64,000 bases of DNA from Tannerellaceae bacterium (lineage in GTDB: Bacteria > Bacteroidota > Bacteroidia > Bacteroidales > Tannerellaceae). Numbering within the stretch: position 1 is the stretch's first letter; every line of letters begins with the position of its first letter. Shown in pieces: positions 2,770-60,743 of the stretch. The stretch lies in the NCBI GenBank assembly GCA_021201865.1, contig JAJQEE010000112.1:481-64480 (forward strand). The letters run 5' to 3'. The notes beneath the pieces were generated by a model. It was not told the origin of the DNA. It saw only the letters and a list, made by a program, of their open reading frames with translations, and ran no database searches. The translations under genes were made by a program, and so were the position numbers.

Positions 2770-4455
2770 ATGAAAAAAATTATATTAGCCTCTATAGTGT
2801 TAGCTGGTTTTTTCTCCGGCTGTTCAGATTTTCTGGAAGAGAATCCTAAAAGTGGTATTCCTAAAGAAGATGCTTTTGAAAGTTCCACATTAGTCTATGT
2901 AAATACGGTTGCTACCATTTATTCCTCTTTCCAGAATTATCTCTATGGATCAACGGATAACATTCATTATTTACAGGAATTCAGTTCAGACTCCTGGATT
3001 CTGCCGGGACGTGGAGCGGACTGGGTAGATGGTGGAAAACATCAGGCTATGTTTCTCCATAGCTATGATGTGGGACATGGAACGGTTGCTACGACCTGGA
3101 ACCAATTATATGAGGTGATAGGTAAATGTAATACTTCTATTGATGACCTGCAGGAATTTATTGATGCCGGAGGAGAAGATTTCCTGTTGGAATATCAATA
3201 TGAAGTCCGTACGATCCGTGCTATTTTTTACTACTTCCTGGCGGATATATTTGGCCGGGTACCTTTAGTTACTTCTTCACAGACAACCATGTCAGAAGTT
3301 GCACAATCTTCCCGTAGTGAAGTCTACCAGTTTGCACTGGATGAACTGATTGAAGCCATCCCTTATCTTGCAAGTGCTAAATGCCAGAATTCCGGATTAT
3401 ATTACGGACGTATGACCAAAGCGGTTGGATATATGGCCATTGCTAAACTTGCTCTAAACAGTCCTGTTTTCACAAAAGATAACTGGACCGATGGTACCTT
3501 AGTGGGTGGAATAGATAAAGTGGCTCCCTGGGTAACAGAACAGGGAAAGAATATTCAGATCACATTAGATGGAACAACCCGCAATGCCTGGGAAACGGTC
3601 ATTTACTGCCAGCAAAAAATTGCGGAAGAAGGCTACTCATTACAACCTAATTTCATAGATAACTTTACAAAAACAAATGATAGCTCAGTGGAGAATATCT
3701 GGACGCAACCCAGTGATGGGACTACTTATCTGGTAGAAAATTACAACCAAAAGCGGACACTGCATTCCCAGCACGCAGGTGCTTATAATGTAGAAGGATG
3801 GAACGGAGCCTGTTCAACTGTTGAACAGATGTTGGTGTTTGGTTATGGTACAGAAAATCAGGATCCACGTCTGGATATGACCTTCTTCCATGGAGAAATA
3901 TCTGTTAACGGGCAAGTACTGCCTTCTGGATTAGGAGATGGTAAAAATTTGGTTTACAACCCTATGAGCGTAATAGTAAACTTTGAACCTACGGATGATG
4001 ATTATACGATGAAAATGGCGGGTGCCCGTTTGGCTAAATATGAAATTGACAATACGACCTCTGATGACCTATATCATAATAATGATAAAGTCTACTGGCG
4101 TTATGCGGATGCTCTCCTGATGGCTGCCGAAGCGAAAATCCGGTTAGGGCAAAGTGGAGACATGGAAGTAAATATGGTGAGAGATCGTGTGGGAGCCTCT
4201 TCAAAATCCGGTGTAACACTAAAAGATATTCTGGATGAAAGAATGATGGAATTCTCTTACGAAGGAATGAGAAGACAGGATCAGGTTCGCTTTGGTACTT
4301 ATGCTGAAGCAATTGCAGATAGATACGTAGGTGTTAAGCATGACCGTTCAGCAGGTGACTATCCGGACGATAAAACTGGTTATACTACTGTATTCCCTAT
4401 ACCACAGACCGTAATTCAGTTAAATACTAATTTAACTCAAAACGCCGGATATTAA
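2770..4455 (+). CDS. SusD/RagB-family outer-membrane lipoprotein (glycan-binding partner of the upstream SusC)
   Basis: 561 aa. Lipoprotein signal MKKIILASIVLAGFFSGCSDFLEE. The SusD-like N-terminus and length fit the family, and it lies directly downstream of SusC. Confidence 0.9.
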   Translation: MKKIILASIVLAGFFSGCSDFLEENPKSGIPKEDAFESSTLVYVNTVATIYSSFQNYLYGSTDNIHYLQEFSSDSWILPGRGADWVDGGKHQAMFLHSYDVGHGTVATTWNQLYEVIGKCNTSIDDLQEFIDAGGEDFLLEYQYEVRTIRAIFYYFLADIFGRVPLVTSSQTTMSEVAQSSRSEVYQFALDELIEAIPYLASAKCQNSGLYYGRMTKAVGYMAIAKLALNSPVFTKDNWTDGTLVGGIDKVAPWVTEQGKNIQITLDGTTRNAWETVIYCQQKIAEEGYSLQPNFIDNFTKTNDSSVENIWTQPSDGTTYLVENYNQKRTLHSQHAGAYNVEGWNGACSTVEQMLVFGYGTENQDPRLDMTFFHGEISVNGQVLPSGLGDGKNLVYNPMSVIVNFEPTDDDYTMKMAGARLAKYEIDNTTSDDLYHNNDKVYWRYADALLMAAEAKIRLGQSGDMEVNMVRDRVGASSKSGVTLKDILDERMMEFSYEGMRRQDQVRFGTYAEAIADRYVGVKHDRSAGDYPDDKTGYTTVFPIPQTVIQLNTNLTQNAGY

Positions 4456-8580: not shown

Positions 8581-8633
8581 AATTATTTACAGAAAAATAT
8601 AAAAGTAAAATATATTTTCCTGTAGGGAAAAAA

Positions 8634-8801
8634 GAAATAGCCCAGGGCTGAGCGAAGCGATTCCCTGGGTTGGAGCCATGAGATAGCCGAACCTTGAAAA
8701 GGTTCCACAAATAGATAATTTATCCTATGCAACCCATTTCAGGGTTGAGGAGTATGGATATTCTACCCGGGGTGTCGCTACGCTCTACCCCGGGCTATTT
8801 C
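8634..8801. repeat. Degenerate palindromic intergenic repeat (family D, copy 1)
   Basis: The left end gaaatagcccagggctgagcgaagcgattccctgggttgg matches the reverse complement of the right end, gaaatagcccggggtagagcgtagcgacaccccgggtagaa. Internal mini-hairpins are gaaccttgaaaaggttc and caacccatttcagggttg. It shares the cccagggctgagcgaagcga module with 58048-58309. Confidence 0.7.
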
Positions 8802-8921
8802 TTTATCCCCTTTGGGAATCTCCTACCTTTTGTTTTTATCTTATTTATTTTTTTGATTCTTATTCATTATTTTGTTCCGGACCATCTCTTTGAAATACTT
8901 CTCTAAAGAAATAAATATTAC

Positions 8922-8956: not shown

Positions 8957-10000
8957 ATGGAAATAGTAGTTAGTGGTATCAGACCTACCGGTAATTTACA
9001 TTTGGGGAATTACTTCGGAGCCGTGAAGAGTTTTGTGGAGTTACAAAAAGAATATAACTGTTTTTTCTTTATTGCAGACTGGCATTCCCTGACCACACAT
9101 TTACAACCTGAAAATATCCGTAGAAGTGTCAAAACCATTCTGGCAGAATATCTCGCCTGTGGGATTGATCCGGAAAAAGCGACCATCTATATACAGAGTG
9201 ATGTGCGTGAAGTGGCGGAATTATATCTGTACCTGAATATGAATGCAGGGATCGGTGAGTTGATGCGTACCACCTCATTTAAAGAGAAGGCCCGTCAACA
9301 ACTACGGATCAGTAATACGGATGCCAGTATAGAGAAAGAGATCTTCAATGAAAATAATAAGCACAGTGTAAATGCCGGATTATTGACCTATCCGACACTG
9401 ATGTGTGCAGATATTATCATTCATAAAGCTGTAAAAGTTCCGGTAGGAAAAGACCAGGAACAGAATATGGAGATGGCCCGTCGTTTTGCCCGTCGTTTCA
9501 ATGCTACTTATCATACGGAACTTTTCCCGGAGCCAGCCTCTTTCCACCTGTCAAATAAAGCTTTAAAGGTTCCCGGACTGGATGGATCCGGAAAGATGGG
9601 AAAAAGTGAAGGAAATGCGATCTATCTGATCGATGATGAAAAAACGATCCGTAAAAAAGTAATGAAAGCAGTGAGTGATGCAGGCCCGACTGAGCCTAAC
9701 AGCGAAAAGCCGGAAGCCATTCAAAACCTTTTTACATTGATGGAGATTGTTTCTGCAAAAGACACCTACGACTTTTTCAATGATAAATATAACAACTGTG
9801 AGATCCGTTACGGAGATATGAAAAAACAGTTGGCGGAAGATATTAATCTGTTCTGTGCTCCTATCCGGGAGAAGATCAATGATATTCTGGCCGATGAAGT
9901 TTATTTAGATAAAGTAGCTCGTTTAGGAGCAGAAAAAGCCAGTGAAAGTGCAGCTAAAACATTAAAAGAGGTTCGGGAGATCATAGGTTTCCGCCCTTAA
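8957..10000 (+). CDS. trpS: Tryptophan--tRNA ligase
   Basis: 347 aa. Class I motifs TGNLHLGNYFGA (HIGH-like) and KMGKS (KMSKS), with a TrpRS-like N-terminus (SGIRPTG..FIADWHSLTT). Confidence 0.93.
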   Translation: MEIVVSGIRPTGNLHLGNYFGAVKSFVELQKEYNCFFFIADWHSLTTHLQPENIRRSVKTILAEYLACGIDPEKATIYIQSDVREVAELYLYLNMNAGIGELMRTTSFKEKARQQLRISNTDASIEKEIFNENNKHSVNAGLLTYPTLMCADIIIHKAVKVPVGKDQEQNMEMARRFARRFNATYHTELFPEPASFHLSNKALKVPGLDGSGKMGKSEGNAIYLIDDEKTIRKKVMKAVSDAGPTEPNSEKPEAIQNLFTLMEIVSAKDTYDFFNDKYNNCEIRYGDMKKQLAEDINLFCAPIREKINDILADEVYLDKVARLGAEKASESAAKTLKEVREIIGFRP

Positions 10001-10015
10001 AAACGAATAATTTTT

Positions 10016-10214
10016 AAGTCCTGAAGGGACGGCATAGGTTAGCCTGGGACGCAAGTCCCAGGTACAGGGATATATAAATTGAGTGCTGAAAGTACGGTAC
10101 AATTTCAACAAACCGAATGTTTATAAAATAGGGGTGTACTTACAGCACACCCTCGGGGGTCTTTATACCTGGGACTTGCGTCCCAGGCTAATTTATACCG
10201 TCCCTTCAGGACTT
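10016..10214. repeat. 199-bp nested palindromic intergenic repeat (family C, copy 1), MITE/REP-like
   Basis: Arms are aagtcctgaagggacggcataggttagcctgggacgcaagtcccaggta and the reverse complement of tacctgggacttgcgtcccaggctaatttataccgtcccttcaggactt (3 mismatches). There is an inner stem gtgctgaaagtac / gtacttacagcac. A second copy lies at 22300-22510. Confidence 0.85.
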
Positions 10215-10403
10215 TAGGAATCAAAGATCTGCCTTAATCGTAATTCTTATTTCAAATCTCATCTCTCACCTTTCACCCCACTCAATTCATATCTGACAAC
10301 GTAATCATTTAATAATGTTTGGTAAATAAACTGAAATTTTATGGCTGGCTAAATAAAACCATCTACATTGCGTCACGTAGAAACGTAGGATAATTACGAA
10401 CGT

Positions 10404-12621: not shown

Positions 12622-15339
12622 ATGTTACGCCTTCTTTTGATCATCGTAGGATTAGGGCTTCTACCGGGATCGGGATTACAGATCCATGTCCGGGGACAAT
12701 TCTCTGCGCCTATCCCACCGGTTACCATAGACATGCATCACGTGGAACTGGCAGATATCCTCACAGAACTGGAAAAACAATCCGGTCTCTTCTTTTCCTA
12801 TGAATCATCCCTTTTGAAAGACCTGCCTAAAGTGACGCTGACAGCAAAGGAAGAATCCTTTTCCTATTGTCTGAAAAGATTGTTTGCTTCGCTTCCCCTT
12901 ACTTACCGGGTCACCGGACAGTATGTGATCCTGAAACCTCAGCCAAAAAGTTATACGATCAGTGGCTTCGTAAGAGATTCCGCTTCCTATGAGAGCCTGA
13001 TCAGTGCGACTGTTGTGGACCGTCACTCCGGCAGGGGGACTACTACGAACAGTTATGGATTCTATAGTATTACCCTTCCGGCCGGACCGGTTTCCCTCTA
13101 TTCCTCCTATGTCGGATTCGGAAGCAAAGAAATATCCTTTGAACTGACCGGGGACACCTTAGTGGATCTTCCGCTGAGTGCAGCCGGAATGATACAGGAA
13201 ATTGTGATCCGGGGCACAGATCCGCATTCGGAAGTTTTAAACAGCCAGATGGGAAATATTCAATTATCTGCTAACCAGATACGGCATGTTCCCGTGGTGT
13301 TCGGAGAACCGGACCTGATCAAAACACTACAGCTTACCCCCGGTATCGCTTCCGGTATGGAAGGCCTGACAGGCATGTATGTAAGGGGAGGAGGTGGAGA
13401 TGAGAATCTCTTCTTACTGGACGGCATTCCCGTATATAATGTAAATCATCTCGGAGGACTGTTTTCCACATTCAATCCGGATATGGTGAAGAATGTGGAT
13501 TTTTATAAGGGAAGCTTTCCGGCCAGATACGGCGGAAGGCTTTCTTCCGTTATAGATGTTCGTCTGAAAGATGGGGATATGCAAAACTATCACGGTAGTT
13601 TTACGATCGGACTTTTAGCGGCCAGAGCTAATATAGAAGGACCCATCGTCAAAGATAAAACCTCTTTCAATGTTGCTTTCCGGCGGACCTGGTATGACGC
13701 CTTTACCACTCCCATATTTGCCATCAAAAACAGGAACAACCAATATGGCTTTTTTGCCGGTTATTCATTCTATGACCTGAATGCGAAGATCAACCATATC
13801 TTTACTCCTAAAAGCCGTTTATATGCTAATTTCTATATGGGACAGGACCGGTTACGGTATGAAGAATATGAATGGATGAATCACTACCCCATCGGTGAGA
13901 AATTTAGCTGGCGCTGGGGAAACCTGGTGACCTCCCTGAACTGGAACTATATCTTCAGTAATAAACTTTTCAGTAACCTCAATATCGCCTATTCCAGATA
14001 TAAACTGAAAGTCCGGGGAGAGGAAAACAGGCTCAAAGTAATAAAAGGGGAGACAGATGATTTCCAGCTCAACCAGTTTACGAACCGGCATTCCTCAGGG
14101 ATAGAAGATATGGGTTATATATATAATCTGGATTATAGTCCTGTTCCGGAACATCATATTAAAGGAGGGGTACAATACCTGTACCATACCTATCACCCGG
14201 AGAAGAAGACCTATAATGTTTCTTCTTTTGGAAATGGATGGAGGGATCAGACTATTCTGTATCGTATCGACCAGGATCCGGTACTCCATGCCCACGAGTG
14301 GGCTGTTTTTGCGGAGGACGAATGGACCCTGGGCGAACGTTGGAAAATAAATGTGGGCGCCCGGCTGAGCAACTATCACGTTCAAAAGGAAGACTATCTC
14401 TCTTTTCAGCCCCGTCTCTCCATGCGGTATCTGATCCGTCCGGGTCTTTCCGTAAAGGCCGGATATACGAAGATGAGCCAGTATGTACATCAGCTATCCA
14501 ATACCTATGCGAATCTGCCTTCCGATATCTGGGTGCCGGTGACGGCGGAAGTAAAACCGATGGAATCCCATCAATATACCGCCGGTCTTTATTACAATTA
14601 CAGGAAGACCTATGATGTGTCTTTGGAAGGGTATTATAAAAAAATGAATCATGTAATTGAATACCAGGATAATGCTTCCCTGTTCCCAAAATATACGCAG
14701 TGGGATGAAAAAATCTCCATGGGAACCGGGCGGTCCTATGGAGTGGAACTCATGGTCAAAAGGGGAGAAGGACATACCACCGGATGGGTAGCTTACACCC
14801 TGGCCTGGTCTGACCGGATTTTCAGGGACGGAACGGTCAATGAAGGCATCCGGTTCCCATCCAAATTTGATAACCGGCATAAATTCAATGCCACGGTTAT
14901 CCATAAAATAAATGACCGGATAGATATCAGTGCCTCCTGGATATTTGCTACCGGTAACCGTGTCACGATCCCGGTCGATTATTATCTTTCCCCGGATTTT
15001 GATCCCCCCATCTCCACCGGCAGACCGGTGTACGGAACAGAATATTTTGATGGCGGAGGGATCTCCCAGTATTATATCACCAACGGATATGAAACCATCC
15101 TGAGACGAAATGCATTTAAGTTAGCGAATTATCACCATCTGGATCTGAGCCTGAATATCTACCGTCCCCGGAAGAACGGAAATATGGGCATCTGGAATAT
15201 CAGTTTGTATAACGTATATAGCCGGAAAAATCCGTTTTGTATCGATAATATTAGTAGTATTGTACCCGGAGAATTAAAAGTAAGCCAGAAAGGTTTTATT
15301 CCAATCATTCCTTCTTTCTCCTATACTTATAAATTCTGA
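12622..15339 (+). CDS. TonB-dependent receptor with an N-terminal signalling (STN-like) domain and a carboxypeptidase-regulatory-like domain
   Basis: 905 aa. The N-terminal ..VELADILTELEKQSGLFFSYES..YVILKP is followed by YTISGFVRD..GFYSITLP. A plug region and a long beta-barrel follow, ending ..SFSYTYKF. Confidence 0.9.
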   Translation: MLRLLLIIVGLGLLPGSGLQIHVRGQFSAPIPPVTIDMHHVELADILTELEKQSGLFFSYESSLLKDLPKVTLTAKEESFSYCLKRLFASLPLTYRVTGQYVILKPQPKSYTISGFVRDSASYESLISATVVDRHSGRGTTTNSYGFYSITLPAGPVSLYSSYVGFGSKEISFELTGDTLVDLPLSAAGMIQEIVIRGTDPHSEVLNSQMGNIQLSANQIRHVPVVFGEPDLIKTLQLTPGIASGMEGLTGMYVRGGGGDENLFLLDGIPVYNVNHLGGLFSTFNPDMVKNVDFYKGSFPARYGGRLSSVIDVRLKDGDMQNYHGSFTIGLLAARANIEGPIVKDKTSFNVAFRRTWYDAFTTPIFAIKNRNNQYGFFAGYSFYDLNAKINHIFTPKSRLYANFYMGQDRLRYEEYEWMNHYPIGEKFSWRWGNLVTSLNWNYIFSNKLFSNLNIAYSRYKLKVRGEENRLKVIKGETDDFQLNQFTNRHSSGIEDMGYIYNLDYSPVPEHHIKGGVQYLYHTYHPEKKTYNVSSFGNGWRDQTILYRIDQDPVLHAHEWAVFAEDEWTLGERWKINVGARLSNYHVQKEDYLSFQPRLSMRYLIRPGLSVKAGYTKMSQYVHQLSNTYANLPSDIWVPVTAEVKPMESHQYTAGLYYNYRKTYDVSLEGYYKKMNHVIEYQDNASLFPKYTQWDEKISMGTGRSYGVELMVKRGEGHTTGWVAYTLAWSDRIFRDGTVNEGIRFPSKFDNRHKFNATVIHKINDRIDISASWIFATGNRVTIPVDYYLSPDFDPPISTGRPVYGTEYFDGGGISQYYITNGYETILRRNAFKLANYHHLDLSLNIYRPRKNGNMGIWNISLYNVYSRKNPFCIDNISSIVPGELKVSQKGFIPIIPSFSYTYKF

Positions 15340-15343
15340 TTCG

Positions 15344-16420
15344 ATGAAGAAGTTTCTGTTCTACATATTCTCTCTCTTTTTGATCTGCTGTTATGGGTCC
15401 TGTACCTACGACAGTATCATAAAAATTGACCAGGTCAGCCCGAAAGGAGTGCTGAATGCGATCCTGCATTCGGACACCATTCTGATGATCAGTGTTTCCC
15501 AGACCGGAAGTGGGGTCGACACAGAGGTTGGTTTCTGGACAGAAGATTATATGGATCACTATTTCATTAACCATGCGGAGGCAGACGTCTTTGTCAATGG
15601 ACAATATGCCGGCCGGATGGAAAGGGGAAATGAAAAAGGTATATATGTGCTGGCTGATTATGTCCCGGAGGAAAATGATCTGGTGAGTCTGGAAGTGGAA
15701 ACACCCTATGGTTTATTATCAGGCGAAGTCCGGATTCCGGCTCTGACCCCTATCCTCAGCGTGGATACACAACGGGTGGTAAATTCGCTTTCGGAGAGTG
15801 GTTTTTTGATCTTTCCATCGATTTGGAAATAGAGAAAAAAGGGTGTTACCACCTATTACATGCTTGCGATTCAGGGATTTGCAGAATACAGGAAAGAAGA
15901 TGAGGTACTCATACGGCCTTTTGCTCCAACCATAACCCACGACGGAGTGCTGTTTTATGAATATGAATGGATTGGGAAGGGAGGAAATTATGTAAATGAA
16001 TATTATGGGGGATATGGAAATGTTCCTTCTCATCCCTCCTATGTGTTAACCTATCTTTTTACCAATCAAACATGGACACAGCCGGAACCGGTTCAGTTCA
16101 TCCTGAAAAATTGTTACCCATCCTACACCGGAGAAGATTATTCCTATCTTTCCCGGTATACTTTTCAGTTATCTACCGTTTCCGAATCTTACTACCTCTA
16201 TATGAAGTCCAAAGTTTTGCAGGCTGAACAGGATGATTTTCTGGGAGAAGCCGGTCTCCGGGAACCGATCCCAACCTATTCAAATGTTAAAGGCGGATAT
16301 GGCCTGGTCGGAGGCAAACAAACCGATACGTACGACCTGATCCTGACAGAGGGTGACCGGCCACCTTCCTATAATCCGTTTGATGACCGGAGGGAGGAAG
16401 AAGAACCCGAAGACTTGTAA
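15344..16420 (+). pseudogene. DUF4249-like lipoprotein usually found downstream of such TonB receptors. It is interrupted by an in-frame TAG at 15830-15832.
   Basis: ORF 15344-15832 (lipoprotein-like MKKFLFYIFSLFLICCYGSC) and ORF 15860-16420 are in the same frame, separated by TAG plus 9 codons. The family assignment comes from context and overall resemblance only. Confidence 0.5.
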
Positions 16421-20463: not shown

Positions 20464-20519
20464 AAAAAGAAAAAAAGAAACAGCAAATAATGTTGTTTTT
20501 TTGTATGGTCAACCTTTTT

Positions 20520-20555
20520 CCGGCTTGCCTTATCTGAAAGGTGAGCCGGATTTTT
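20520..20555 (+). terminator. Possible terminator after the LVIVD gene
   Basis: Stem ccggct / agccgg with an 18-nt loop, followed by attttt. The stem is weak. Confidence 0.35.
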
Positions 20556-20564
20556 CTCCCTATA

Positions 20565-21089
20565 AATTTATTTTTAGGTATTCATCTATTCATATTTTTC
20601 GCAAACGGCTGTATTACAATGAATAAACTATGCACCCCTTCACGTTTCAGGTATTCATATGTATGCACCCCTGCCGGTCAGGTATTCATTCGGACAGAAT
20701 AAACAGACAGGCTCCGTAGGATAAGTATTTGTTTACTAATTACCCATCATTCATTACCCGCCTATATCTTTTTGCCAGTCCGCATACAAACTATTACTAC
20801 CCTCTACAGGGTAGCGCTGGTAAGATAGTATCTATTCATCAAAAAGTAGGCACCTACGAACGCCAGGGTGTAGAGGGTAGTAATAGTTTGTAGGTACCGT
20901 CTTTCCCTTTCCCGCTTGGTCTTTATCAAAAGATCAATTGATTATCCATTATTTTCCCTGCGGAATGAATACTTTATCCCAGGGTATTCATAAATATGAA
21001 TACCTGAAACGTGAAGGGGTGCATAGTTTATTCATTGTAATACAGCCGTTTGCGAAAAATATGAATAGATGAATACCTGAAAATAAATT
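20565..21089. repeat. 525-bp nested-palindrome non-coding element (family A/B, copy A)
   Basis: 20565-20660 and 20994-21089 are reverse complements at 95/96 positions. An inner perfect 24-bp stem (20785-20808 / 20869-20892) closes a 60-nt loop. GGTATTCA / TGAATACC occurs many times. There is no ORF >=60 aa. It is homologous to 59369-59881 in the opposite orientation, and the homology extends a little beyond the arms (~20554-21112). Confidence 0.9.
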
Positions 21090-21161
21090 GCAGGAGGAGG
21101 AAAAAGAAAAATTAATAGGCGGATATCCGGAATCCTTTACCCTGGTAGAAGACCGGGTACA

Positions 21162-21935: not shown

Positions 21936-22299
21936 GACTATCCTGTATTATAGAAGGGCAAGATACCAATTTCCGGGGAAAATGAAAAGGAGAAATTCAT
22001 TTTTATTCATGTCCGGATATGCGTTTTTTTGATGATTTGTTCCGGATTAACCTTTTCTCTATCCATTATCCGTATAAGAGTTTTCCTGATGAACCTGTGA
22101 ACTGTTTCCTGTTATTAACAACCAGATGTTCATAACAGAAAACAGTTCTTCTTTCTTCCGTGTAAACCTGAGACTTAGTCTGTTTATAAACCTGTTCATA
22201 ATCCGGTTAAAAACACTTATCGTTCATTGAAAAAGTTCCAGATTGTAAGCCCATAGGGCTTGCATGTGAAGGGTGATTGGCAAAGGGTGGTCTTTGTCT

Positions 22300-22510
22300 C
22301 TTAAGTCCTGAAAGGACGTCATATAATAGCCTGGGACGCAAGTCTCAGGTCAGGTATCAGCAGTCAATGGAGTGCTGAAAGTACGACACTGCATATACCA
22401 ACCTATTGTTTTCATCAGATGGGGTGTACATACAGCACACCCCGGGTGGGGATTTCCCTACCTGGGACTTGCGTCCCAGGCTAATATATGCCGTCCCTGC
22501 GGGACTTAAG
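22300..22510. repeat. 211-bp nested palindromic intergenic repeat (family C, copy 2)
   Basis: Arms are cttaagtcctgaaaggacgtcatataatagcctgggacgcaagtctcaggt and the reverse complement of acctgggacttgcgtcccaggctaatatatgccgtccctgcgggacttaag. The inner stem gtgctgaaagtac / gtacatacagcac is conserved with copy 1 (10016-10214). Confidence 0.85.
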
Positions 22511-22609
22511 GGATCAACGCTGGCAAATCCGGAGCATGAGAGATTGAAAAAAGGCATCTCTTATATCTGCTTTCCGCTTTCAGAGAAGGGATCTTCTTCG
22601 ACTAAAGTC

Positions 22610-27580: not shown

Positions 27581-30500
27581 TTAAAAAGTGACCATGGCCC
27601 CGAAGGTATAGGAACGGGTGGATGGATAACGGTTGATAGCATCCACGCCCGGATCTAATGTCGAAACATTTACCTCCGGATCAATACCGCTATAGCCGGT
27701 AATCGTGATCAGGTTGCTTCCGGAAGCGTAGAGCCGCAGGCGTTTGATATACTTATTGTTGAACGTGAAATTATAGCCTAACGTGATGTTATCTATTTTC
27801 CAGAAATCCCCTTTCTCGATAAAATGGCTTACGTATTGGAGTTCCTGCTGGTCACTTAACGGCCGTTTACCAAATACCGGGTCGTAGGCTGTTGACAGCA
27901 GATTTCCATGGGTCAGGTTTACCGGACAGTCGTAGTAGAGCCGGGGGAGATTCAATATATCATAGCCGAACGTTCCCCGCATAGTGATATTCAGGTCAAA
28001 GTTTTTATAGACAAAACTGTTGTCCCAGCTCAGGAAATGTTTGGGCAGACCGTTTCCGATCACTGTTTTATCGTCCGGTTGCTGTTCACCAATGGGTTTG
28101 GGATTGCCATCTTTCCCTTCGATGATCCATTTCCCTTCTTCATCTATATCCACCACTTTGAATCCCCAGAAGTTACCGGCTTTTCCTCCTTCATGCAGCC
28201 GGTGGGTCTCCTGTTTAATGGTGGTACCGATATAACCGGCATCAATGTATCCGGATTCTACTTTGAACCGGTCGTCGGACAGGGACACAATCTTGTTTTT
28301 ATTCGTTGAATAGTTGGCTGTAGTGATCCACCGGAAATCTTTGGTCTGCACAGGAATTACACTTACACTGATCTCTAATCCTTTATTATTCATGGTACCG
28401 GCATTAGCCAGAATGTCCGAATAAAGGTAAGGAGGTGTAGGTACGTGGTACCCCCCCATAAGAGATCTTTAGTCGTCCGGTTATAGAGATCGATACTTCC
28501 GTAAATACGTCCTTCCCATAACCCGAAATCCACTCCAAGGTTCCATTCTTCTTTCTTTTCCCAACGCAGGTCCGGATTTGCATTTTCATACGGTTTCAGG
28601 TCGGTTAACCAGTTGCTGCCGTCGACTAAAAAGTTCATATTCGAGGTCAGCCGGCTTAACGAAGCATATTCACTTCCGGCAATGGTTCCGGTCACCCCAA
28701 ATCCTGCTCTTAGTTTCAGGTTGGATATGGCCGGGATCCCTTCCATAAATTCTTCGTTGGACAGGTTCCAGCCGATGGATGCCGCCGGGAAGTTACCCCA
28801 TTTATTGTTTGCTCCGAATTTGGAAGAACCTTCATGACGGATACTGACAGAAGCCAGATACCTGTTCTGGTAGTTGTAGTTGGCACGGGCAAAAAAACCG
28901 ATCAGGACAGACTTGGATTTTGCCGAGTACATATCTGCTTCTCCACGCATCAGTCCGGCTCCGGATCCCATATTGTGATAAGTGTACTGGTCGGAGGCAA
29001 AGTCCCGGTTCCGCATGTAGTCCATCTCCCAGATATTATCCTGGTAGGAGTAGCCTACCAATCCGGTCAGGTGGTGTTCGCCAAAGGATTCTTTGTACTG
29101 AGCGGTTAATTCCAGCAGGTTTTCCTGGGTAAAGATATTTCCTTTATAGGCACGGCCGTTCCGGTTATCCCGTATGTTGGAAATATGGTTATGGGATTCG
29201 GAATATCCCTGTGTTTCATGGTACCGGGTATGGGATACCAGGGCTTTCAGGTTTAACTGTTCAATCGGGGTCAGCGTGGCTGAACCGAAGGTTCGCAACT
29301 GGGTACTTTTATTTTCTCCTTCACTCTCTTCGATCAGGGCACGGGCATTGGCATATTCATACATGGCGGGTCTTTCCTGCCAGTTTCCGGCATCATCCTT
29401 TACCCGGTCCGTAGGAATATTGGCTAATGCATTCCGGTAGATCTCCTGGTTGAAACTGGAACCCTCTGCAAAGGCATGGTATTTTTGTTCACGGCCCATA
29501 ATGTTCATGTTTAGCTTCAACAGGTTATCCCACATCGAATGGTTTACTTCCAGACGGGTGGTCAGGACCTCATTGTTGGACCGGCGGATAATTCCCTGTC
29601 CGGAACGATAGTTCACATTGGCGATGTAATTGGATTTTCCGGAACCTCCCTTGATACTGGCATTTGTCACCCAGGAAAAAGGAGTCTGCATGATTTCATC
29701 TAACCAGTTGGTATCGTATCCGTAATCTACCGCACCCGGTTTTCCCTGGTTAACTAATTCCCGGTACTGGGTGGCATCCATCATATCTAATCTTTTTTTG
29801 ATGGTCTGGGTAGTGATGTAGCTATGGACATCGATTGTCATCGGGACTTCTCCCCGGACCTTTTTGGTGGTCACAAAGATGACTCCATTATTCCCCCGGG
29901 TTCCGTAGATGGCTGCTGCGGAACCGTCTTTTACCACATCTATACTTTCTATATCTTCCGGGGCCACCGTATTCAGGTCACCGGGAACTCCGTCAATAAT
30001 AACCAAAGGAGAAATAGAAGAGTAGAGGGTTCCCACTCCACGCAGCATGATCTGGGTCGTTGCTGTCGGGTCACCGTTCGGAAGGATCACTCCCAGACCC
30101 GCCACCTTTCCCTGTAAAAGCTGGGCAGCATCCTGTACGGTTCCCTGGATGAAAGATTCACTTTTTACACTGGCAATAGAGGAGGTAAGTTCTCCTTTCC
30201 GTTGGGTACCGTAGCCTACTACGACCACTTCATCTAACTTCTGTGTATCTTCCTGAAGCCGGATCCGGATCACGCTTTGGTTATTTACTGGGATTTCCTG
30301 GGTGTGATAACCAATATAGGAGATCACTAATGTCGCGGATGCCGCGGGAATCTCTAACGTAAAGTTCCCGTCCAGGTCCGTGATGGTTCCGTTCGTAGTT
30401 CCTTTCACCACAATATTGGCTCCGATCACAGCTTCTCCTGTCTGGTCTGTCACCGTACCGGATATTTTTTTGCTGGGTTTGCTGTGTAACCGGAAGCACT

Positions 30501-30801
30501 GTTTTTTGGATAGGATGATGTAATTATTCTCAAACTCATAGGTCAGGCTCCCATCTTGGAAAGCCGCTGTCAGATAATCCGAAACACTGGCAGAAGAGTG
30601 ATTCAGGTGGACGGAACGTTCCACATCTATTTCACTATTGCTATAGATGACTAAATGGTCCGTCTGCTGTTCTATCTCATCGATCAGTTCCCCGACCGTC
30701 AGCCGGGCAGAAGGAAGATGGATGATCGCATTTTGTGCTCCGCTGTCTGTGGCAAACAACTGGAAGCCGCATACAAATAGCAGGAATATGGATATTTTCA
30801 T
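27581..30801 (-). pseudogene. SusC-like TonB-dependent transporter with an N-terminal anti-sigma-signalling (STN) domain. The frame is broken at C7 run 28451-28457 (G7 on the coding strand).
   Basis: ORFs 28390-30867 and 27581-28459 are consecutive SusC parts (STN-like ..LTVGELIDEIEQQTDHLVIYS.., ISGTVTD..GANIVVKGTTNGTITDLDGNF, LDEVVVVGYG, ..TFGAMVTF end). Adding one G gives ..KDLLWGGYHVPTPPYLYS... The likely start is MKISIFLLF at 30801. Confidence 0.9.
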
Positions 30802-30927
30802 GATGCGAATGAATTCTTTGGTGTTTTTAATGCATAGGATATGCGTTAACAAAGGTTCTCTTTTCATATCTTTGTTTCATTAAGTGAGTACTAAGGTGTG
30901 TTTGATCACATGGTATTTGCTTCTACG

Positions 30928-36494: not shown

Positions 36495-37779
36495 ATGGAA
36501 CGTTTATTGCACTATGTCTGGAAATACAGGCTGTATCCGGGCATAACCTTAACCACTACAGATGGAAAACCTGTAACTATCCTGGATCCCGGAATCCACA
36601 ACACACATGCCGGTCCCGACTTTTTTAATGCTAAAGTGAAAATCGAAGAAACCGTATGGGTAGGAGATGTGGAGATACATACGAAAGCTTCTGACTGGCA
36701 CCATCATAAACATAGTCTGGACAAACGGTATGACTCCATTATTCTGCATGTTGTGGAAATAGACGACAGACAGATCACCCGGATAAATGGGGAAAGCATT
36801 CCACAGCTCGTGATAGAGATCCCGGAAGAGGTCCGGAGAAGTGCTGAATGGTTGGTGTCCCGGGAAACTTCTGTCCCTTGCCTGAATCAACTAAGATCTT
36901 TTGAGTCTGTTCATTTGTATACCTGGTTAGATGCCCTGTTGGGTGAACGCCTGCAAAGAAAAATAGGTGATATTTTCCGGTTGTTGGAGGAATATCAGCA
37001 TGACTGGAATGAGGTGTTCTACATTATCCTGACCCGTAATTTTGGTTTAGGGGTCAATAGTGACGCTTTTGAATGGCTGGCCCGAAGCCTCCCTCTAAAA
37101 TATATCCGGAAACAACGGGGGCCTCTTCACAGGTAGAGGCGATGTTCTTCGGACAGGCGGGTATGTTAGAGGAGACCTATGACTGTCATTATTTCAAATT
37201 GTTACAGCAGGAATATCGTTTCCTCCGGTATAAATTTGATCTCAAACCTTTGGAAAGCTCTTTATATAAAAGCCTCCGGATACGCCCCTCTAATTTTCCG
37301 CAGGTGAAGATCGCACAGCTTTCTGCTCTGTGGAGCCGGTATGATACACTCTTTTCCATGATATTGGAGGCGGGTAATCTCCGGCAGATCAAGAGCCTTT
37401 TGCGGGTCCCACCTTCTGATTACTGGGAAACTCATTATCATTTTCACCAGGTCTCTGCTAAAAAGGAAAAGCTGTTGGGAGAACAGACCTTAAATATCAT
37501 GTTGACCAATACCGTAGTCCCGATGCTATTTGCTTATGGCTACCAGAATAACCTGACTGAATATACAGACCGCGCGATTGAGATATTGGAGCGGTTGCCA
37601 GCCGAAAAAACAGGATTATTTCCCTGTTTGACCAGGCAGGGATCGTGGCCAGGCATGCCGGAGATACGCAATCGATTATTCAATTAAAGCGGGAATATTG
37701 TGAAAAGGGGAAATGCCTGTTTTGCCGGATTGGTTTTCAATTGTTAAAACGATGCTGTCAAAATGGGGAAAATCCTTGA
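36495..37779 (+). pseudogene. DUF2851-family protein. The frame is broken twice (G5 run 37117-37121 and A6 run 37605-37610).
   Basis: N-terminus MERLLHYVWKYRLY..GIHNTHAGPDFFNAKVKI..VEIHTKASDWHHHKH. The second frame continues ..ASSQVEAMFFGQAGML... The third frame gives ..NRIISLFDQAGIVARHAGDTQSIIQLKREYCEKGKCLFCRIG.. to the stop at 37777-37779. Confidence 0.8.
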
Positions 37780-57370: not shown

Positions 57371-57939
57371 TTACTTATCCGGATGCTGGTTTCTTTTCAG
57401 GAGAGCACCCCGGAGCTGTTTCAGAGCTTTATATAATTGAGCTTCTACTGTTCTTTTGGAAATGTCAAGAAGGGAAGCGATCTCCGTTGTTTTTCGCTCT
57501 TCCAGATAGGACATGGTAAATATTTCCCGGCATCTTTCCGGAAGTTTTTCTATTTCATGATAAATAGCGGATAAGCGTCTGTCTTCGGCAAAAAGAAAGG
57601 AAGGATCATCATTAAACCGGATCTCTTCTATTTTCAGCTGGGTGAGGATCGTTTCCCGGTAATTCCCGGTGATCTCTTTATGTTTCAGATAATCTAAACA
57701 GGTGTGCTGAACGGAACGGTATAAATAATGGGAAATTCCCTCTTTAATATAATGAAATATTTTTTCTGCCAGATCTTAAAGAATACATCCTGTACCAGAT
57801 CTTCGGCAGTCACGGGATCCACATACTTTGCCGCATAGTAGATCAGTTGCGGAGCATAGGTGTTATAAAGAGCCTTAAACTCTTCCAGTTCAGTAGGATT
57901 CTCTCGTGGATTATTCATAGGGCCTGTAATCAGAAACAA
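57371..57939 (-). pseudogene. ECF sigma factor. The frame is broken at T6 run 57760-57765 (A6 on the coding strand).
   Basis: ORF 57694-57939 carries region 2 (TAEDLVQDVFFKIWQKK). Another frame continues IFHYIKEGISHYLYRSVQHTCLDYLK...LPERCREIFTMSYLEERKTTEIASLLDISKRTVEAQLYKALKQLR.. to the stop at 57371-57373. Confidence 0.85.
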
Positions 57940-58047: not shown

Positions 58048-58309
58048 GTAAATGTTTTATATGCTGACTATTCTACCCTGCAAGGGTAACAGCATCAGCC
58101 CAGGGCTGAGCGAAGCGAGCCCCTGGGTTGTAAAGTAGTATGATTCAACCCTGTAGTGGGTTGCATATTTATTATTGACTTATTGACAGAGAGTGAAACC
58201 CTTACAGGGTTATTGTTTTGGTAACCTTACCCAGGGATTCGCTTCGCTCAGCCCTGGGCTATTGCTGGTACCCTTGCAGGGTAGAATAGTCAGCATATAA
58301 AACATTTAC
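58048..58309. repeat. 262-bp nested palindromic intergenic repeat (family D, copy 2)
   Basis: The arm gtaaatgttttatatgctgactattctaccctgcaagggtaacagcatcagcccagggctgagcgaagcga pairs with the reverse complement of tcgcttcgctcagccctgggctattgctggtacccttgcagggtagaatagtcagcatataaaacatttac, with few mismatches. The interior is pseudo-symmetric, with mini-hairpins aaccctgtagtgggtt and aacccttacagggtt. Confidence 0.85.
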
Positions 58310-59279: not shown

Positions 59280-59368
59280 GGTTTATTAATTATATAAATT
59301 CTTTATTCAAAGATAGGGATCTATTTTAGAATGGGGATAAAAAATCTCCTGTTTTCTTCCTGGAACTT

Positions 59369-59881
59369 TTTTTAGGTATTCACCTATTCACCTTTTGGGT
59401 AAGTGGCTGATCATGAATCAGTAACGGTGCATACCTGGCTGTTTTAGGTATTCACCTCGGTGAATACCCCAGGGCAGAAGTATTCACCTTGCAGGGAGAG
59501 TATAGGATAATAAAGGGACATTTTGGTGAATAGTAAAGGCTCAAGTCTCAGGGGATGCCCACAAACTATTGCTACCCTCTACACCCTGGCGTCCGTAGCC
59601 GCCTACTTTATTGGTGAATAGATACTATCTTACCGGCGCTACCCTGTAGAGGGTAGCAATAGTTTGTGGGTGGGGCGGAAAAAAGAGGTATGCGGGTAGT
59701 GAATGATGATAGGGGATTCAATGAATACTTTCCCTATGGGAAAACCTTTCTTTGTCCTGAAAAGTGAATATCTTACTGGTAGGTATTCACCCAGGTGAAT
59801 ACCTAAAACAGCCAGGTATGCACCGCTACTGATTCATGATCAGTCACTTATCCAAAAGGTGAATAGGTGAATACCTAAAAA
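59369..59881. repeat. 513-bp nested-palindrome non-coding element (family A/B, copy B), inverted relative to copy A
   Basis: 59369-59456 and 59794-59881 are reverse complements at 85/88 positions. An inner perfect 26-bp stem (59558-59583 / 59645-59670) closes a loop that is the reverse complement of copy A's loop at 54/60 positions. There are many GGTATTCACC / GGTGAATACC motifs and no ORF >=60 aa. Homology to copy A extends to ~59345-59899. Confidence 0.9.
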
Positions 59882-59937
59882 TAAATTTATAGGGGGGAGA
59901 TTAACGAGAAAGAGGATATCCTAAAAGTCTATCTCTG

Positions 59938-60050: not shown

Positions 60051-60743
60051 TTATTTGAACTCTTTTAATAACCGGGTCAATTGTTTTACACCTTCGGAAG
60101 CACCTGCCTGAATGAAGTGTATATCTTTCCGGTATGTGTTTACCTCCTTCGGATCGATCAGGTAGATGGGTTGTCCCCGGCGAACGTAGTTTAATAATCC
60201 GGCTGCGGGATATACATTCAGGGAAGTTCCTATGACTACCACAATGTCTGATTGTTCCATTAACCGGATGGCCGGATCGATCATAGGAACAGCTTCACCG
60301 AACCAGACAATAAAAGGGCGTAGCTGATCTCCTTTAGGATCCGTATCGCCTATATGAAGTTCCGGATTTTCCGGAGAGATGTCGAAAGGAGTGCCCGGAT
60401 CTTTGACAGAACAGGATTTCATTAATTCTCCATGTAGATGCAGCACCTTCGAACTACCCGCTCTTTCATGCAGGTTGTCTACATTCTGGGTAATGATCTC
60501 TACATCGAACTCTTTTTCCAAAGCGGCTAATCCATAATGTCCTTCATTGGGTTCACAGGTTAGTAGTTGCCGGCGCCGTTGATTGTAGAATTCGAGCACT
60601 AATTGTGGGTTGGCAGCAAATGCTTCCGGAGTAGCTACTTCTTCTACCCGGTACTTTTCCCACAGGCCATCTGAATCCCGGAAGGTGGAGATCCCGCTTT
60701 CCGCACTCATGCCTGCACCTGTTAAAACAACTAATTTTTTCAT
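60051..60743 (-). CDS. cobB: Sir2-family NAD-dependent protein deacylase (CobB/NpdA-like)
   Basis: 230 aa. GAGMSAESGISTFRD, QNVDNLHERAG, HLHGE, and GTSLNVYPAAGL. This is standalone, housekeeping-type architecture. Confidence 0.85.
   Translation of the reverse strand: MKKLVVLTGAGMSAESGISTFRDSDGLWEKYRVEEVATPEAFAANPQLVLEFYNQRRRQLLTCEPNEGHYGLAALEKEFDVEIITQNVDNLHERAGSSKVLHLHGELMKSCSVKDPGTPFDISPENPELHIGDTDPKGDQLRPFIVWFGEAVPMIDPAIRLMEQSDIVVVIGTSLNVYPAAGLLNYVRRGQPIYLIDPKEVNTYRKDIHFIQAGASEGVKQLTRLLKEFK

What the first reader, a model, noticed from the sequence alone, without database searches (positions are those of the whole stretch)
20565..21089. 525-bp nested-palindrome non-coding element (copy A) between convergent genes
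Seen in the sequence: 20565-20660 and 20994-21089 are reverse complements at 95 of 96 positions. The 333-nt interior contains a second perfect 24-bp stem (20785-20808 / 20869-20892) closing a 60-nt asymmetric loop. Neither strand has an ORF >=60 aa anywhere in 20464-21161, and there is no transposase, integrase or reverse transcriptase nearby. This is far larger and more structured than a terminator or a classical REP. I cannot place it in any named IS, MITE or Rfam family from memory. It could be a non-autonomous foldback mobile element, a large structured RNA, or a cruciform-forming protein-binding locus.
Basis: seen in the sequence. Interest (0 to 1): 0.8.

Follow-up and report, generated by a model that had tools for sequence, protein, structure and literature searches.

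The report
Long-armed foldback repeat element family
The 525-bp palindrome is a real, non-coding, multi-copy repeat element found so far only in a few uncultured Tannerellaceae gut-type bacteria; it looks like an unusual, undescribed relative of miniature transposons whose long arms are arrays of protein-binding sites, not a structured RNA or an assembly error.

Summary
An independent assembly contains copy B.

The element belongs to a family of at least 16 unique loci in at least 4 related Tannerellaceae genomes. The terminal 21-mer scan of 185,579 species genomes found it in only one other genome, and plasmid, phage and viral searches found none.

Shared anatomy:
- Tips read TTTCTCTCC.
- Each arm carries five to six GGTAT(T/G)CA sites at fixed, helically phased positions.
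- The core holds two CTACCCTCTACACCCT units 66-67 nt apart.

The near-perfect 100-130-nt palindrome occurs only in some copies, and the inner stem only in this genome. Neither defines the family.

Copies lie in intergenic DNA, mostly facing gene 3' ends, with no recombinase nearby and no target-site duplication. Paralogues 97-98% identical at unrelated loci show recent copying. New copies end precisely at one tip and are truncated at the other. Other copies persist at orthologous sites across species, with the interior inverted.

Rfam, covariation and promoter scans give no support for an RNA gene or an invertible promoter.

Best reading: an undescribed, trans-mobilised, MITE-like foldback element. 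The enzyme and mechanism remain unidentified.

The parts
20549..21105 (.). Copy A, whole element tip to tip (about 557 bp)
   Evidence: Alignment with copy B and nine other full members. nhmmer arm-profile hits at 20554-20634 (+) and 21099-21020 (-).
20549..20575 (+). Left tip of copy A: TTTTTCTCCC-TATAAATTTATTTTT (family consensus TTTCTCTCC-n10-TTTTT)
   Evidence: The tip consensus is seen in 18 arms. Similarity between the paralogues L005 and L007 ends exactly at this tip.
20565..20691 (+). Left arm of copy A, with GGTAT(T/G)CA-type sites at +2, +10, +75, +88 (reverse) and +106 from the AGG anchor at 20576
20782..20895 (-). Conserved core of copy A, in family orientation on the minus strand: AAACTAT-R1-spacer-R2'-ATAGTTT
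   Evidence: nhmmer core profile, 91.8 bits; alignment A4.
20865..20880 (-). Core unit R1, CTACCCTCTACACCCT
   Evidence: R1 is identical in 9 of the 12 aligned cores; L007 differs at 3 positions, and L019 and L026 at 1 each.
20797..20814 (-). Core unit R2', CTACCCTGTAGAGGGTAG.
   Evidence: Other members have the direct unit CTACCCTCTACACCCTAC here.
20785..20892 (.). Inner hairpin (24-bp stem, 60-nt loop). It is derived and specific to the window genome's copies A and B.
20963..21089 (-). Right arm of copy A (the tip continues to about 21105)
59345..59905 (.). Copy B, whole element. Its core is in the opposite orientation to copy A in window coordinates.
   Evidence: The independent assembly L058 reproduces it.
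59369..59468 (+). Copy B, arm 1 (96/100 complementary to arm 2)
59556..59671 (+). Copy B core (R1, spacer, R2' with a 25-bp perfect stem)
59782..59881 (-). Copy B, arm 2

Best explanation
Copy A is one member of an undescribed family of non-coding, non-autonomous repeat elements. I call it a long-armed, MITE-like foldback element. It acts at the DNA level in a small clade of uncultured Tannerellaceae.

**Shown**
- Each arm begins with the tip TTTCTCTCC. It carries five to six 8-9-bp sites, GGTAT(T/G)CA, at fixed positions spaced by multiples of about 10.5 bp.
- The centre carries two CTACCCTCTACACCCT units with an invariant 66-67-nt spacing, bracketed by AAACTAT/ATAGTTT.
- The remaining sequence and its length are free to vary.

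**Inferred**
- The phased sites are binding sites for a sequence-specific transposase or recombinase encoded elsewhere in the genome. This protein assembles on the two arms. The core is an accessory, enhancer-like or second-protein site.
- New copies are made without a target-site duplication, by a replicative, one-ended process. It starts at an arm tip and runs inward for a variable distance. This would explain copies that end exactly at one tip and lack the other arm.
- Once resident, ordinary recombination between the two arms inverts the interior and, by gene conversion, homogenises the arms. That produces the near-perfect 100-130-nt palindromes of copies A, B and L007.
- Templated quasi-palindrome repair turned the second core unit into the 24-bp inner stem in this genome.
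For: **Multi-copy and dispersed.** There are 2 copies in the window, 4 loci in MAG JAJQFE01, 10 unique loci in the Ga0192242-44/62 organism, and one in a sister species. Their neighbours are unrelated housekeeping genes.

**Recent copying.** L007 and L005 are about 97% identical over about 370 nt. L039 and L043 are about 98% identical over about 330 nt. Both pairs have unrelated flanks and share a precise end at the tip.

**Partial copies.** Five of six partial copies keep the arm on the R2 side, and two of them begin within about 5 nt of R1.

**Binding-site layout.** Sites sit at +2, +10, +54, +74, +85 and +106 in nearly all arms. GGTATTCA occurs at 10.7 per kb inside the elements and 0.14 per kb outside. 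The 13-mer TTCAGGTATTCAT matches 5 times against 0.17 expected.

**Core.** The R1-R2 spacing is 66-67 nt in every copy, although the spacers vary.

**Arm identity.** It is 92-100% in A, B and L007, but 65-82% in five other copies. The between-copy mean is 71%.

**Inversion.** The interior is inverted between orthologous copies while the flank-adjacent arm stays collinear. Whole-interior inversion is favoured over core-only inversion, z = 3.0 against -0.2.

**Location.** 21 of 30 flanking gene ends are 3' ends, and 7 of 14 loci lie between convergent genes.

**Nothing known fits.** There is no coding capacity, no Rfam family and no plasmid or phage match.
Against: - No target-site duplication of 4 nt or more was found in 9 full copies.
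- No autonomous partner and no transposase or recombinase was found in the 64-kb window or in about 0.4 Mb of fetched flanking DNA.
- No clean filled-versus-empty site pair was found. In L057, synteny simply ends at the insertion point.
- Three copies are retained at orthologous sites across species whose flanks are only 81-83% identical. Their short motifs are intact while the spacers have decayed. This also fits selection for a host function.
- The core motif occurs in a different element of human-gut Bacteroidales, so it may serve a host protein and not a transposase.
- The one-ended replicative mechanism rests on only two paralogue pairs and five partial copies.
Confidence: 0.55

Rival explanations
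1. It is an exapted or host-maintained protein-binding locus. The arrays of phased sites and the fixed-spacing core would be a docking platform for a host DNA-binding protein (architectural, regulatory or replication/segregation-related), kept by selection at each locus. Any mobility would be ancient.
For: Copies are retained at orthologous sites in species with 81-83% flank identity. The motifs and their spacing are intact there, while the spacers are only about 50-60% identical. Site positions and the R1-R2 spacing are fixed. The core motif is shared with an unrelated element in other Bacteroidales. There is no target-site duplication and no transposase.
Against: Paralogues 97-98% identical at unrelated loci show recent copying, which a static host site does not need. 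Truncated and one-armed copies are tolerated. Nested insertions and 130-nt length changes occur in the interior. Copies lie mostly beyond gene 3' ends, where selfish repeats accumulate. The family is restricted to a very narrow clade.
Confidence: 0.2
2. It is a programmed invertible switch (an inverton). A site-specific recombinase would flip the interior between the inverted arms to change the expression of nearby genes.
For: The interior is in opposite orientation in both orthologous pairs examined. Inverted repeats flank an asymmetric, conserved core.
Against: No recombinase gene lies next to any copy. No conserved Bacteroidetes -7 box TAnnTTTG occurs in any of 9 copies. Most neighbouring genes present their 3' ends. 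Samples of one organism show a single orientation: L018=L019, L011=L029 and L058=window. One-armed copies cannot invert at all. The arms, at 100-130 nt, are long enough for ordinary homologous recombination.
Confidence: 0.1
3. It is a large structured non-coding RNA, or a long double-stranded RNA hairpin or bidirectional terminator, transcribed from the element.
For: The predicted folding energy is extreme, z = -21.6. The element sits beyond gene 3' ends. In three cores (L019, L023, L042) one position of the short core-closing stem is T opposite G, which would be G-U in RNA.
Against: No Rfam match was found even at E <= 10. RNAalifold on 12 cores gives -3.2 kcal/mol with a covariation term of -0.16. 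Arm complementarity is only 65-82% in most members. The inner stem is absent from other members, which have direct repeats there. Conservation takes the form of short exact sequence blocks at fixed spacing, not paired columns. Copy A lies downstream of its neighbour's own terminator.
Confidence: 0.04
4. It is an assembly artefact, a chimeric palindrome created by the assembler.
For: Short-read Logan contigs end inside the arms.
Against: The independent JGI assembly L058 reproduces copy B and its orientation at 99.77% identity. Full elements with the same anatomy occur in three other assemblies.
Confidence: 0.01

Closest known systems
Prokaryotic MITEs (e.g. Correia, ERIC, Chunjie, QMITE)
   Same: The element is small, non-coding, multi-copy and intergenic, often lies beyond gene 3' ends, and has terminal inverted repeats. 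Partial and truncated copies co-exist with full ones, and other repeats are nested inside it. Copy A has a lower G+C than the window (0.38 against 0.435). The definition is taken from PMC10969869.
   Different: The inverted repeats are 100-130 nt with five to six phased internal sites, where MITEs have about 4-30 bp. The length is 450-625 bp, at or above the usual limit. There is no target-site duplication. No parent IS was found. A strongly conserved central module with fixed spacing is present, and the interior inverts.
REPINs (inverted REP doublets mobilised by RAYT / Y1 HUH transposases)
   Same: Both are hairpin-forming inverted doublets in extragenic space with no target-site duplication. 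Both persist for long periods at orthologous sites while occasionally duplicating. The core is rich in GTAG/CTAC tetranucleotides. (The REPIN properties are from my own knowledge.)
   Different: This element is five to ten times larger. Its arms are arrays of 8-9-bp sites, not one GC-rich REP hairpin. No RAYT gene was seen in any fetched DNA. Arm complementarity is not maintained in most copies.
Multi-site transposon ends (Tn7, Mu, IS21, Tn402 type)
   Same: The ends span about 100-150 bp and contain several subterminal, phased binding sites in inverted orientation at the two ends. An internal accessory site is reminiscent of the Mu enhancer. (The comparison is from my own knowledge.)
   Different: There are no terminal TG...CA ends, no 5-bp duplication, and no transposase genes between or near the ends.
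Eukaryotic Foldback (FB) elements
   Same: Both have very long inverted arms built from short sub-repeats, a variable middle region, and mostly non-coding copies prone to recombination and inversion. (From my own knowledge.)
   Different: FB elements belong to a different domain of life, have no sequence relationship to this family, and produce target-site duplications.
Bacteroidales invertons (invertible promoters)
   Same: Inverted repeats flank a segment that is found in both orientations.
   Different: No promoter motif and no recombinase nearby are present, the arms are much longer, and most copies are not upstream of genes.

Membership tests
Prokaryotic MITE | Short non-coding element (typically under 500 bp) | tested here: met
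   No ORF of 60 aa or more. Full members measure 450-625 bp tip to tip, which is at the upper edge of the range.
Prokaryotic MITE | Terminal inverted repeats | tested here: met
   All full copies share inverted termini TTTCTCTCC...AGGTATTCAyCTATTCA. The arms are 100-130 nt, far longer than the usual 4-30 bp.
Prokaryotic MITE | Flanking direct repeats (target-site duplication) | tested here: not met
   No consistent duplication of 4 nt or more in 9 full copies, and none at the recent copies L005 and L043. Decay with age cannot be excluded for the old copies.
Prokaryotic MITE | Multiple dispersed copies at unrelated loci | tested here: met
   At least 16 unique loci in at least 4 genomes, with unrelated neighbours.
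Prokaryotic MITE | A parent IS or transposon with the same termini that supplies the transposase in trans | tested here: inconclusive
   The terminal 21-mer scan of 185,579 species genomes found only miniature copies. No extra terminal motif was found in about 0.48 Mb of held DNA. Whole genomes of the hosts could not be scanned.
Prokaryotic MITE | Presence/absence polymorphism (empty sites) | tested here: inconclusive
   Sister species carry the element at orthologous sites. L057 lacks it, but synteny ends at the same point. P. goldsteinii lacks it, but is too distant to serve as an empty site.
REPIN / REP-RAYT system | Short (about 20-40 nt) GC-rich REP palindromes paired as inverted doublets | tested here: not met
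   The arms are 100-130-nt arrays of AT-rich 8-9-bp sites.
REPIN / REP-RAYT system | A cognate RAYT (Y1 transposase) gene in the genome, usually flanked by REPs | not testable with these tools
   None was found in the window or next to other copies.
Inverton (invertible promoter) | A segment between inverted repeats found in both orientations | tested here: met
   Opposite orientations are seen between orthologous copies in two species pairs. Variation within a population was not seen.
Inverton (invertible promoter) | A promoter inside the invertible segment and a regulated downstream gene | tested here: not met
   No conserved TAnnTTTG box. 21 of 30 neighbouring gene ends are 3' ends.
Inverton (invertible promoter) | A dedicated site-specific recombinase | tested here: not met
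   None lies next to any of 16 loci or anywhere in the 64-kb window. A distant, global invertase cannot be excluded.
Any Rfam RNA family | Covariance-model match at or near the gathering score | tested here: not met
   Searches gave only sub-threshold hairpin (miRNA-type) noise.
Tn7/Mu-type transposon ends | Terminal 5'-TG...CA-3' and a 5-bp target duplication | tested here: not met
   The tips read TTTCTCTCC and there is no 5-bp duplication.

The most novel reading that the evidence does not exclude
The element is not a decaying MITE. It is a new kind of trans-acting nucleoprotein module specific to Bacteroidales. On this reading, an unidentified protein recognises the CTACCCTCTACACCCT motif. 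That motif is shared with a separate tandem-array element that sits at a junction with variable DNA next to nanM in human-gut Bacteroidales. A second protein recognises the phased GGTAT(T/G)CA arms. Together they would drive duplication-free copying and interior inversion, either as a new transposition or recombination system or as a domesticated chromosomal switch or landing pad.
Probability: 0.15. Interest if true: 0.7.

Novelty: new variant of a known kind. Interest (0 to 1): 0.42.

Why it matters
If the reading holds, this is a bacterial repeat family with an uncommon build. It has very long arms made of helically phased binding sites, a conserved centre with fixed spacing, and no target duplication. 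It makes one-ended copies and its interior inverts.

That build points to a mobilising enzyme, or a host protein, that has not been identified in Bacteroidales. The family also gives a natural example of how long palindromes are created, homogenised and partly deleted in bacterial chromosomes.

Practically, the element breaks short-read assemblies of these genomes. The profiles built here could be used to mask or bridge it.

Its narrow host range and the absence of any linked gene limit the wider impact for now.

Tried and rejected
**Searches that found nothing relevant**
- Rfam at gathering score and at E <= 10 on both copies gave nothing.
- BLAST of the element against plasmids and phages gave no match.
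- The A/B-specific core 20-mer gave 0 hits in viral and metagenome contigs. This variant is private to the window genome.
- The terminal motif hit one viral contig (L053) and one Saprospiraceae contig (L006). Both are chance matches, and the viral one lies inside a coding region.
- The motif strings occur in no paper in the text library.

**Hypotheses tested and dropped**
- The two 256/257-aa neighbours of copies A and B are not homologues.
- Structured RNA for the core: RNAalifold gave -3.2 kcal/mol and no covariation.
- Invertible promoter: no conserved -7 box.
- Sigma-54-type and Bacteroidetes -33/-7 readings of the core were checked by eye and are inconsistent between copies.
- Target-site duplications of 4-9 nt with flexible boundaries gave nothing consistent.
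- Flip of the core only, between the short repeats: not favoured, z = -0.2.
- PD-(D/E)XK (Rpn-like) transposase as the cognate enzyme: it is adjacent to the R-motif array in L014 only, not in L015, L022, L032 or L035.
- GGTAT(T/G)CA occurrences outside the elements as operators of a cognate gene: they are isolated and intragenic.

**Empty-site search and miscellaneous**
- The Sir2 neighbour's homologue L057 lacks the element, but synteny ends there, so it is not a clean empty site.
- One count of structure pairs failed on a length error and was not repeated.

Full report
**1. The observation**

- Arms 20565-20660 and 20994-21089 pair at 95 of 96 positions.
- 20785-20808 and 20869-20892 pair at 24 of 24, closing a 60-nt loop.
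- The interior is 333 nt.

The inverted repeat is longer than reported. It is 127 nt at 91%, and more diverged tips reach about 20549 and 21105. No ORF of 60 aa or more exists in the gap. As a single strand the element folds at -156.7 kcal/mol against -48.5 +/- 5 for shuffles, z = -21.6.

The flanking genes converge: an LVIVD-like 419-aa gene and a 257-aa gene. The upstream gene has its own terminator at 20519-20550, and the element starts just after it.

**2. It is real and repeated**

A second copy, B, lies at about 59345-59905, with 100-nt arms at 96%. An independent JGI assembly, L058 (Ga0192245), matches the window at 99.77% over 7.8 kb in one alignment that runs through copy B in the same orientation. 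Short-read Logan contigs end inside the arms. The palindrome is therefore not an assembly artefact. The window itself comes from an NCBI Tannerellaceae MAG with LUG51_ locus tags.

**3. The family**

- The terminal 21-mer, scanned across 185,579 species genomes, found four loci in one other Tannerellaceae MAG, JAJQFE01.
- A universal core 19-mer, scanned across metagenomes, found ten unique loci, all in long contigs of one organism from JGI samples Ga0192242-44/62.
- A sister species carries an arm downstream of the orthologue of the 419-aa gene.
- Searches of viral contigs, plasmids and phages found no copy of the element.
- Profile searches found no further copies or remnants in the window.

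**4. Anatomy**

Reading from tip to centre:
- **Tip:** TTTCTCTCC.
- **A/T-rich stretch:** about 10 nt ending in TTTTT.
- **Terminal module:** AGGTATTCAyCTATTCAyC.
- **Further sites:** GGTAT(T/G)CA sites at +54 (reversed), +74, +85 and +106 from the AGG anchor. These spacings are multiples of the helical repeat. Some sites form a perfect 22-bp palindrome, GGTATTCAC-N4-GTGAATACC.

GGTATTCA occurs at 10.7 per kb in the elements and 0.14 per kb elsewhere in the window.

The centre reads AAACTATnn-CTACCCTCTACACCCTGGC-n10-GCCTAC...-GCTACCCTCTACACCCTAC-GGATAGTTT. The two units start 66-67 nt apart in every copy, although the spacer sequence varies. The regions between the arms and the core vary freely in sequence and length, and they accept nested repeats.

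**5. What is not family-wide**

Left-right arm identity over the first 100 nt is 94% in A, 92% in B and 100% in L007. It is only 65-82% in L009, L019, L039, L042 and L050. That is no higher than the between-copy values, which average 71%.

The 24-bp inner stem exists only in the window genome. Elsewhere the second core unit is a direct repeat of the first. In A and B, 11 nt of that unit are replaced by the complement of the first unit. The nested palindrome that drew attention is therefore a derived state.

**6. Evidence on dynamics**

- **Recent copying.** L007 and L005 are about 97% identical over about 370 nt, and L039 and L043 about 98% over about 330 nt. In both pairs the flanks are unrelated and similarity ends exactly at the arm tip. 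In each pair the second member lacks the other arm.
- **Partial copies.** Five of six partial copies keep the arm on the R2 side of the core. Two of them start within about 5 nt of R1, directly after a stop codon.
- **Long residence.** L004/L019 and L008/L042 occupy the same sites in two species whose flanks are 81-83% identical. Copy A has an orthologue in a species whose flanking protein is 81% identical.
- **Inversion.** In L008/L042 the flank-adjacent arm is collinear, but the interior is inverted. Whole-interior inversion is favoured, z = 3.0, against -0.2 for a flip of the core alone. L004/L019 also differ in core orientation.
- **No target-site duplication**.
- **No clean empty site.** In L057, synteny stops exactly at the Sir2 stop codon.

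**7. Context**

No transposase, integrase or reverse transcriptase was found among the 46 window ORFs scanned with Pfam or among the 20 neighbours scanned in other genomes. Those neighbours are housekeeping genes such as PBP1, ValRS, DnaJ, RelA/SpoT and PhoH. Twenty-one of 30 flanking gene ends are 3' ends. Seven of 14 loci lie between convergent genes. Tips are often 1-13 nt from a stop codon.

**8. Readings tested**

- **Structured RNA.** No Rfam hit. RNAalifold on 12 cores gives -3.2 kcal/mol with no covariation. Arm pairing is not conserved. Rejected.
- **Invertible promoter.** No conserved Bacteroidetes -7 box, no recombinase, and neighbours that mostly present 3' ends. Weak.
- **Classical MITE.** It fits in most respects, but it fails on target duplication, arm length and the missing parent element.
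- **REPIN-like.** It fits in behaviour but not in size or sequence type, and no RAYT gene was seen.

The conservation pattern is short exact blocks at fixed, helically phased positions in otherwise free sequence. That pattern is what protein-binding DNA looks like.

**9. Best explanation**

The element is an undescribed, non-autonomous, MITE-like foldback element that acts as DNA. I infer the following.
- Its arms are assembly sites for a trans-encoded recombinase or transposase.
- Its core is an accessory site.
- New copies arise by a duplication-free, one-ended process that starts at a tip.
- Arm-arm recombination flips the interior and homogenises the arms.
- Quasi-palindrome repair made the inner stem.

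The anatomy, the copy history, the inversion and the lack of known-family matches are shown. The enzyme and the copying mechanism are inferred. My confidence is 0.55. The main rival, at 0.2, is a host-maintained binding locus. Intact motifs in old orthologous copies support that rival.

**10. An unexpected lead**

Some hits of the core scan that I first took for chance form a second element, in L014, L015, L022, L032 and L035. It has three to four tandem 22-nt units of the same motif. Twenty-six of 27 positions match the R1 region of copy B in the window, including the ACTATT prefix. The units are bracketed by a 16-bp inverted repeat.

In four contigs this element lies just beyond the 3' end of nanM in a sialic-acid utilisation locus. 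Variable, mobile-looking DNA lies on its other side: PD-(D/E)XK transposase, Fic/AlbA, or a prophage tail gene. It is not in Rfam or the plasmid set. The core motif therefore has a life outside this family. This keeps open a more novel reading, involving a shared and still unknown Bacteroidales DNA-binding or recombination protein.

**11. Verdict**

The element is a new variant of a known kind, and it is of moderate interest.

Noticed in passing
window 10014-10217 and 22297-22513: These are two copies of a second foldback repeat of about 200 nt. Each is an inverted pair of a 46-nt motif that scores 54-61 bits against Rfam Acido-Lenti-1 (RF01687, gathering score 37), on opposite strands. That 'sRNA' motif behaves here like a REP-type inverted doublet in a Bacteroidales genome.
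   Followed up: partly
window 8617-8818 and 58048-58309 (also L039 2001-2168): A third foldback repeat family has 50-80-nt arms (81 nt at 94% in the second copy) built around CCCAGGGCTGAGCGAAGCGA..CCCTGGG. It is also present in the Ga0192244 organism at 82% identity. The genome carries at least three unrelated palindromic repeat families.
   Followed up: partly
L014 4899-5092; L015 about 3050-3240; L022 about 12805-13000; L035 about 12690-12940; L032 about 2430-2680: A conserved non-coding element in human-gut and other Bacteroidales contigs has 3-4 tandem 22-nt units of CTACCCTCTACACCCTGGCnnn, ending in the palindrome CTACCCTGTACAGGGTAG. A 16-bp inverted repeat brackets the units. In four contigs it lies just beyond the 3' end of nanM, with variable genes on the other side (PD-(D/E)XK transposase, Fic/AlbA, prophage tail). 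It is not in Rfam or in the plasmid set.
   Followed up: partly
window 36495-37687; 15344-16420; 27581-30867; 57694-57939: Several genes appear split or truncated: DUF2851 in two ORFs, DUF4249 in two ORFs, a SusC-type receptor in two overlapping ORFs, and an 81-aa sigma-70 fragment. The same sigma-70 gene is an intact 189-aa ORF in the independent assembly L058. This suggests frameshift errors in the MAG, or strain-level pseudogenes.
   Followed up: partly
L023 about 9400-9630; L026 and L043 interiors; L004 2885-2988: Other repeats are nested inside family members. They include a long near-perfect palindrome in L023 (ggcgtagccctgg...ccagggctacgcc) and CCGCAGGGCCGG-type hairpins in L004. The interiors tolerate insertions, while the R1-R2 spacing never changes.
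   Followed up: no
L019 about 10075-10150: About 60 nt outside the element tip there is a solo inverted copy of the tip (CCCAGGAGAAAAA ... TTTTTCTCCTGGG). It is absent from the orthologous locus L004. It may be a remnant of another end or a small hairpin.
   Followed up: no
L057 (GCA_020861165.1, JAJBSX010000090.1) against window 60051-60061: Synteny with a related MAG (82% nucleotide identity over 3.9 kb) stops exactly at the Sir2 stop codon, where copy B begins in the window. The relative has an MGMT-type methyltransferase gene there instead, and no element. A rearrangement breakpoint coincides with the element.
   Followed up: partly
L008 4832-4935 against L042 5882-6905: Next to the orthologous element, one species has about 1 kb more than the other, including a GNAT acetyltransferase gene. 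In the species without it, the adjacent arm of the element is reduced to about 20 nt. This suggests a deletion that removed an arm together with flanking DNA.
   Followed up: no
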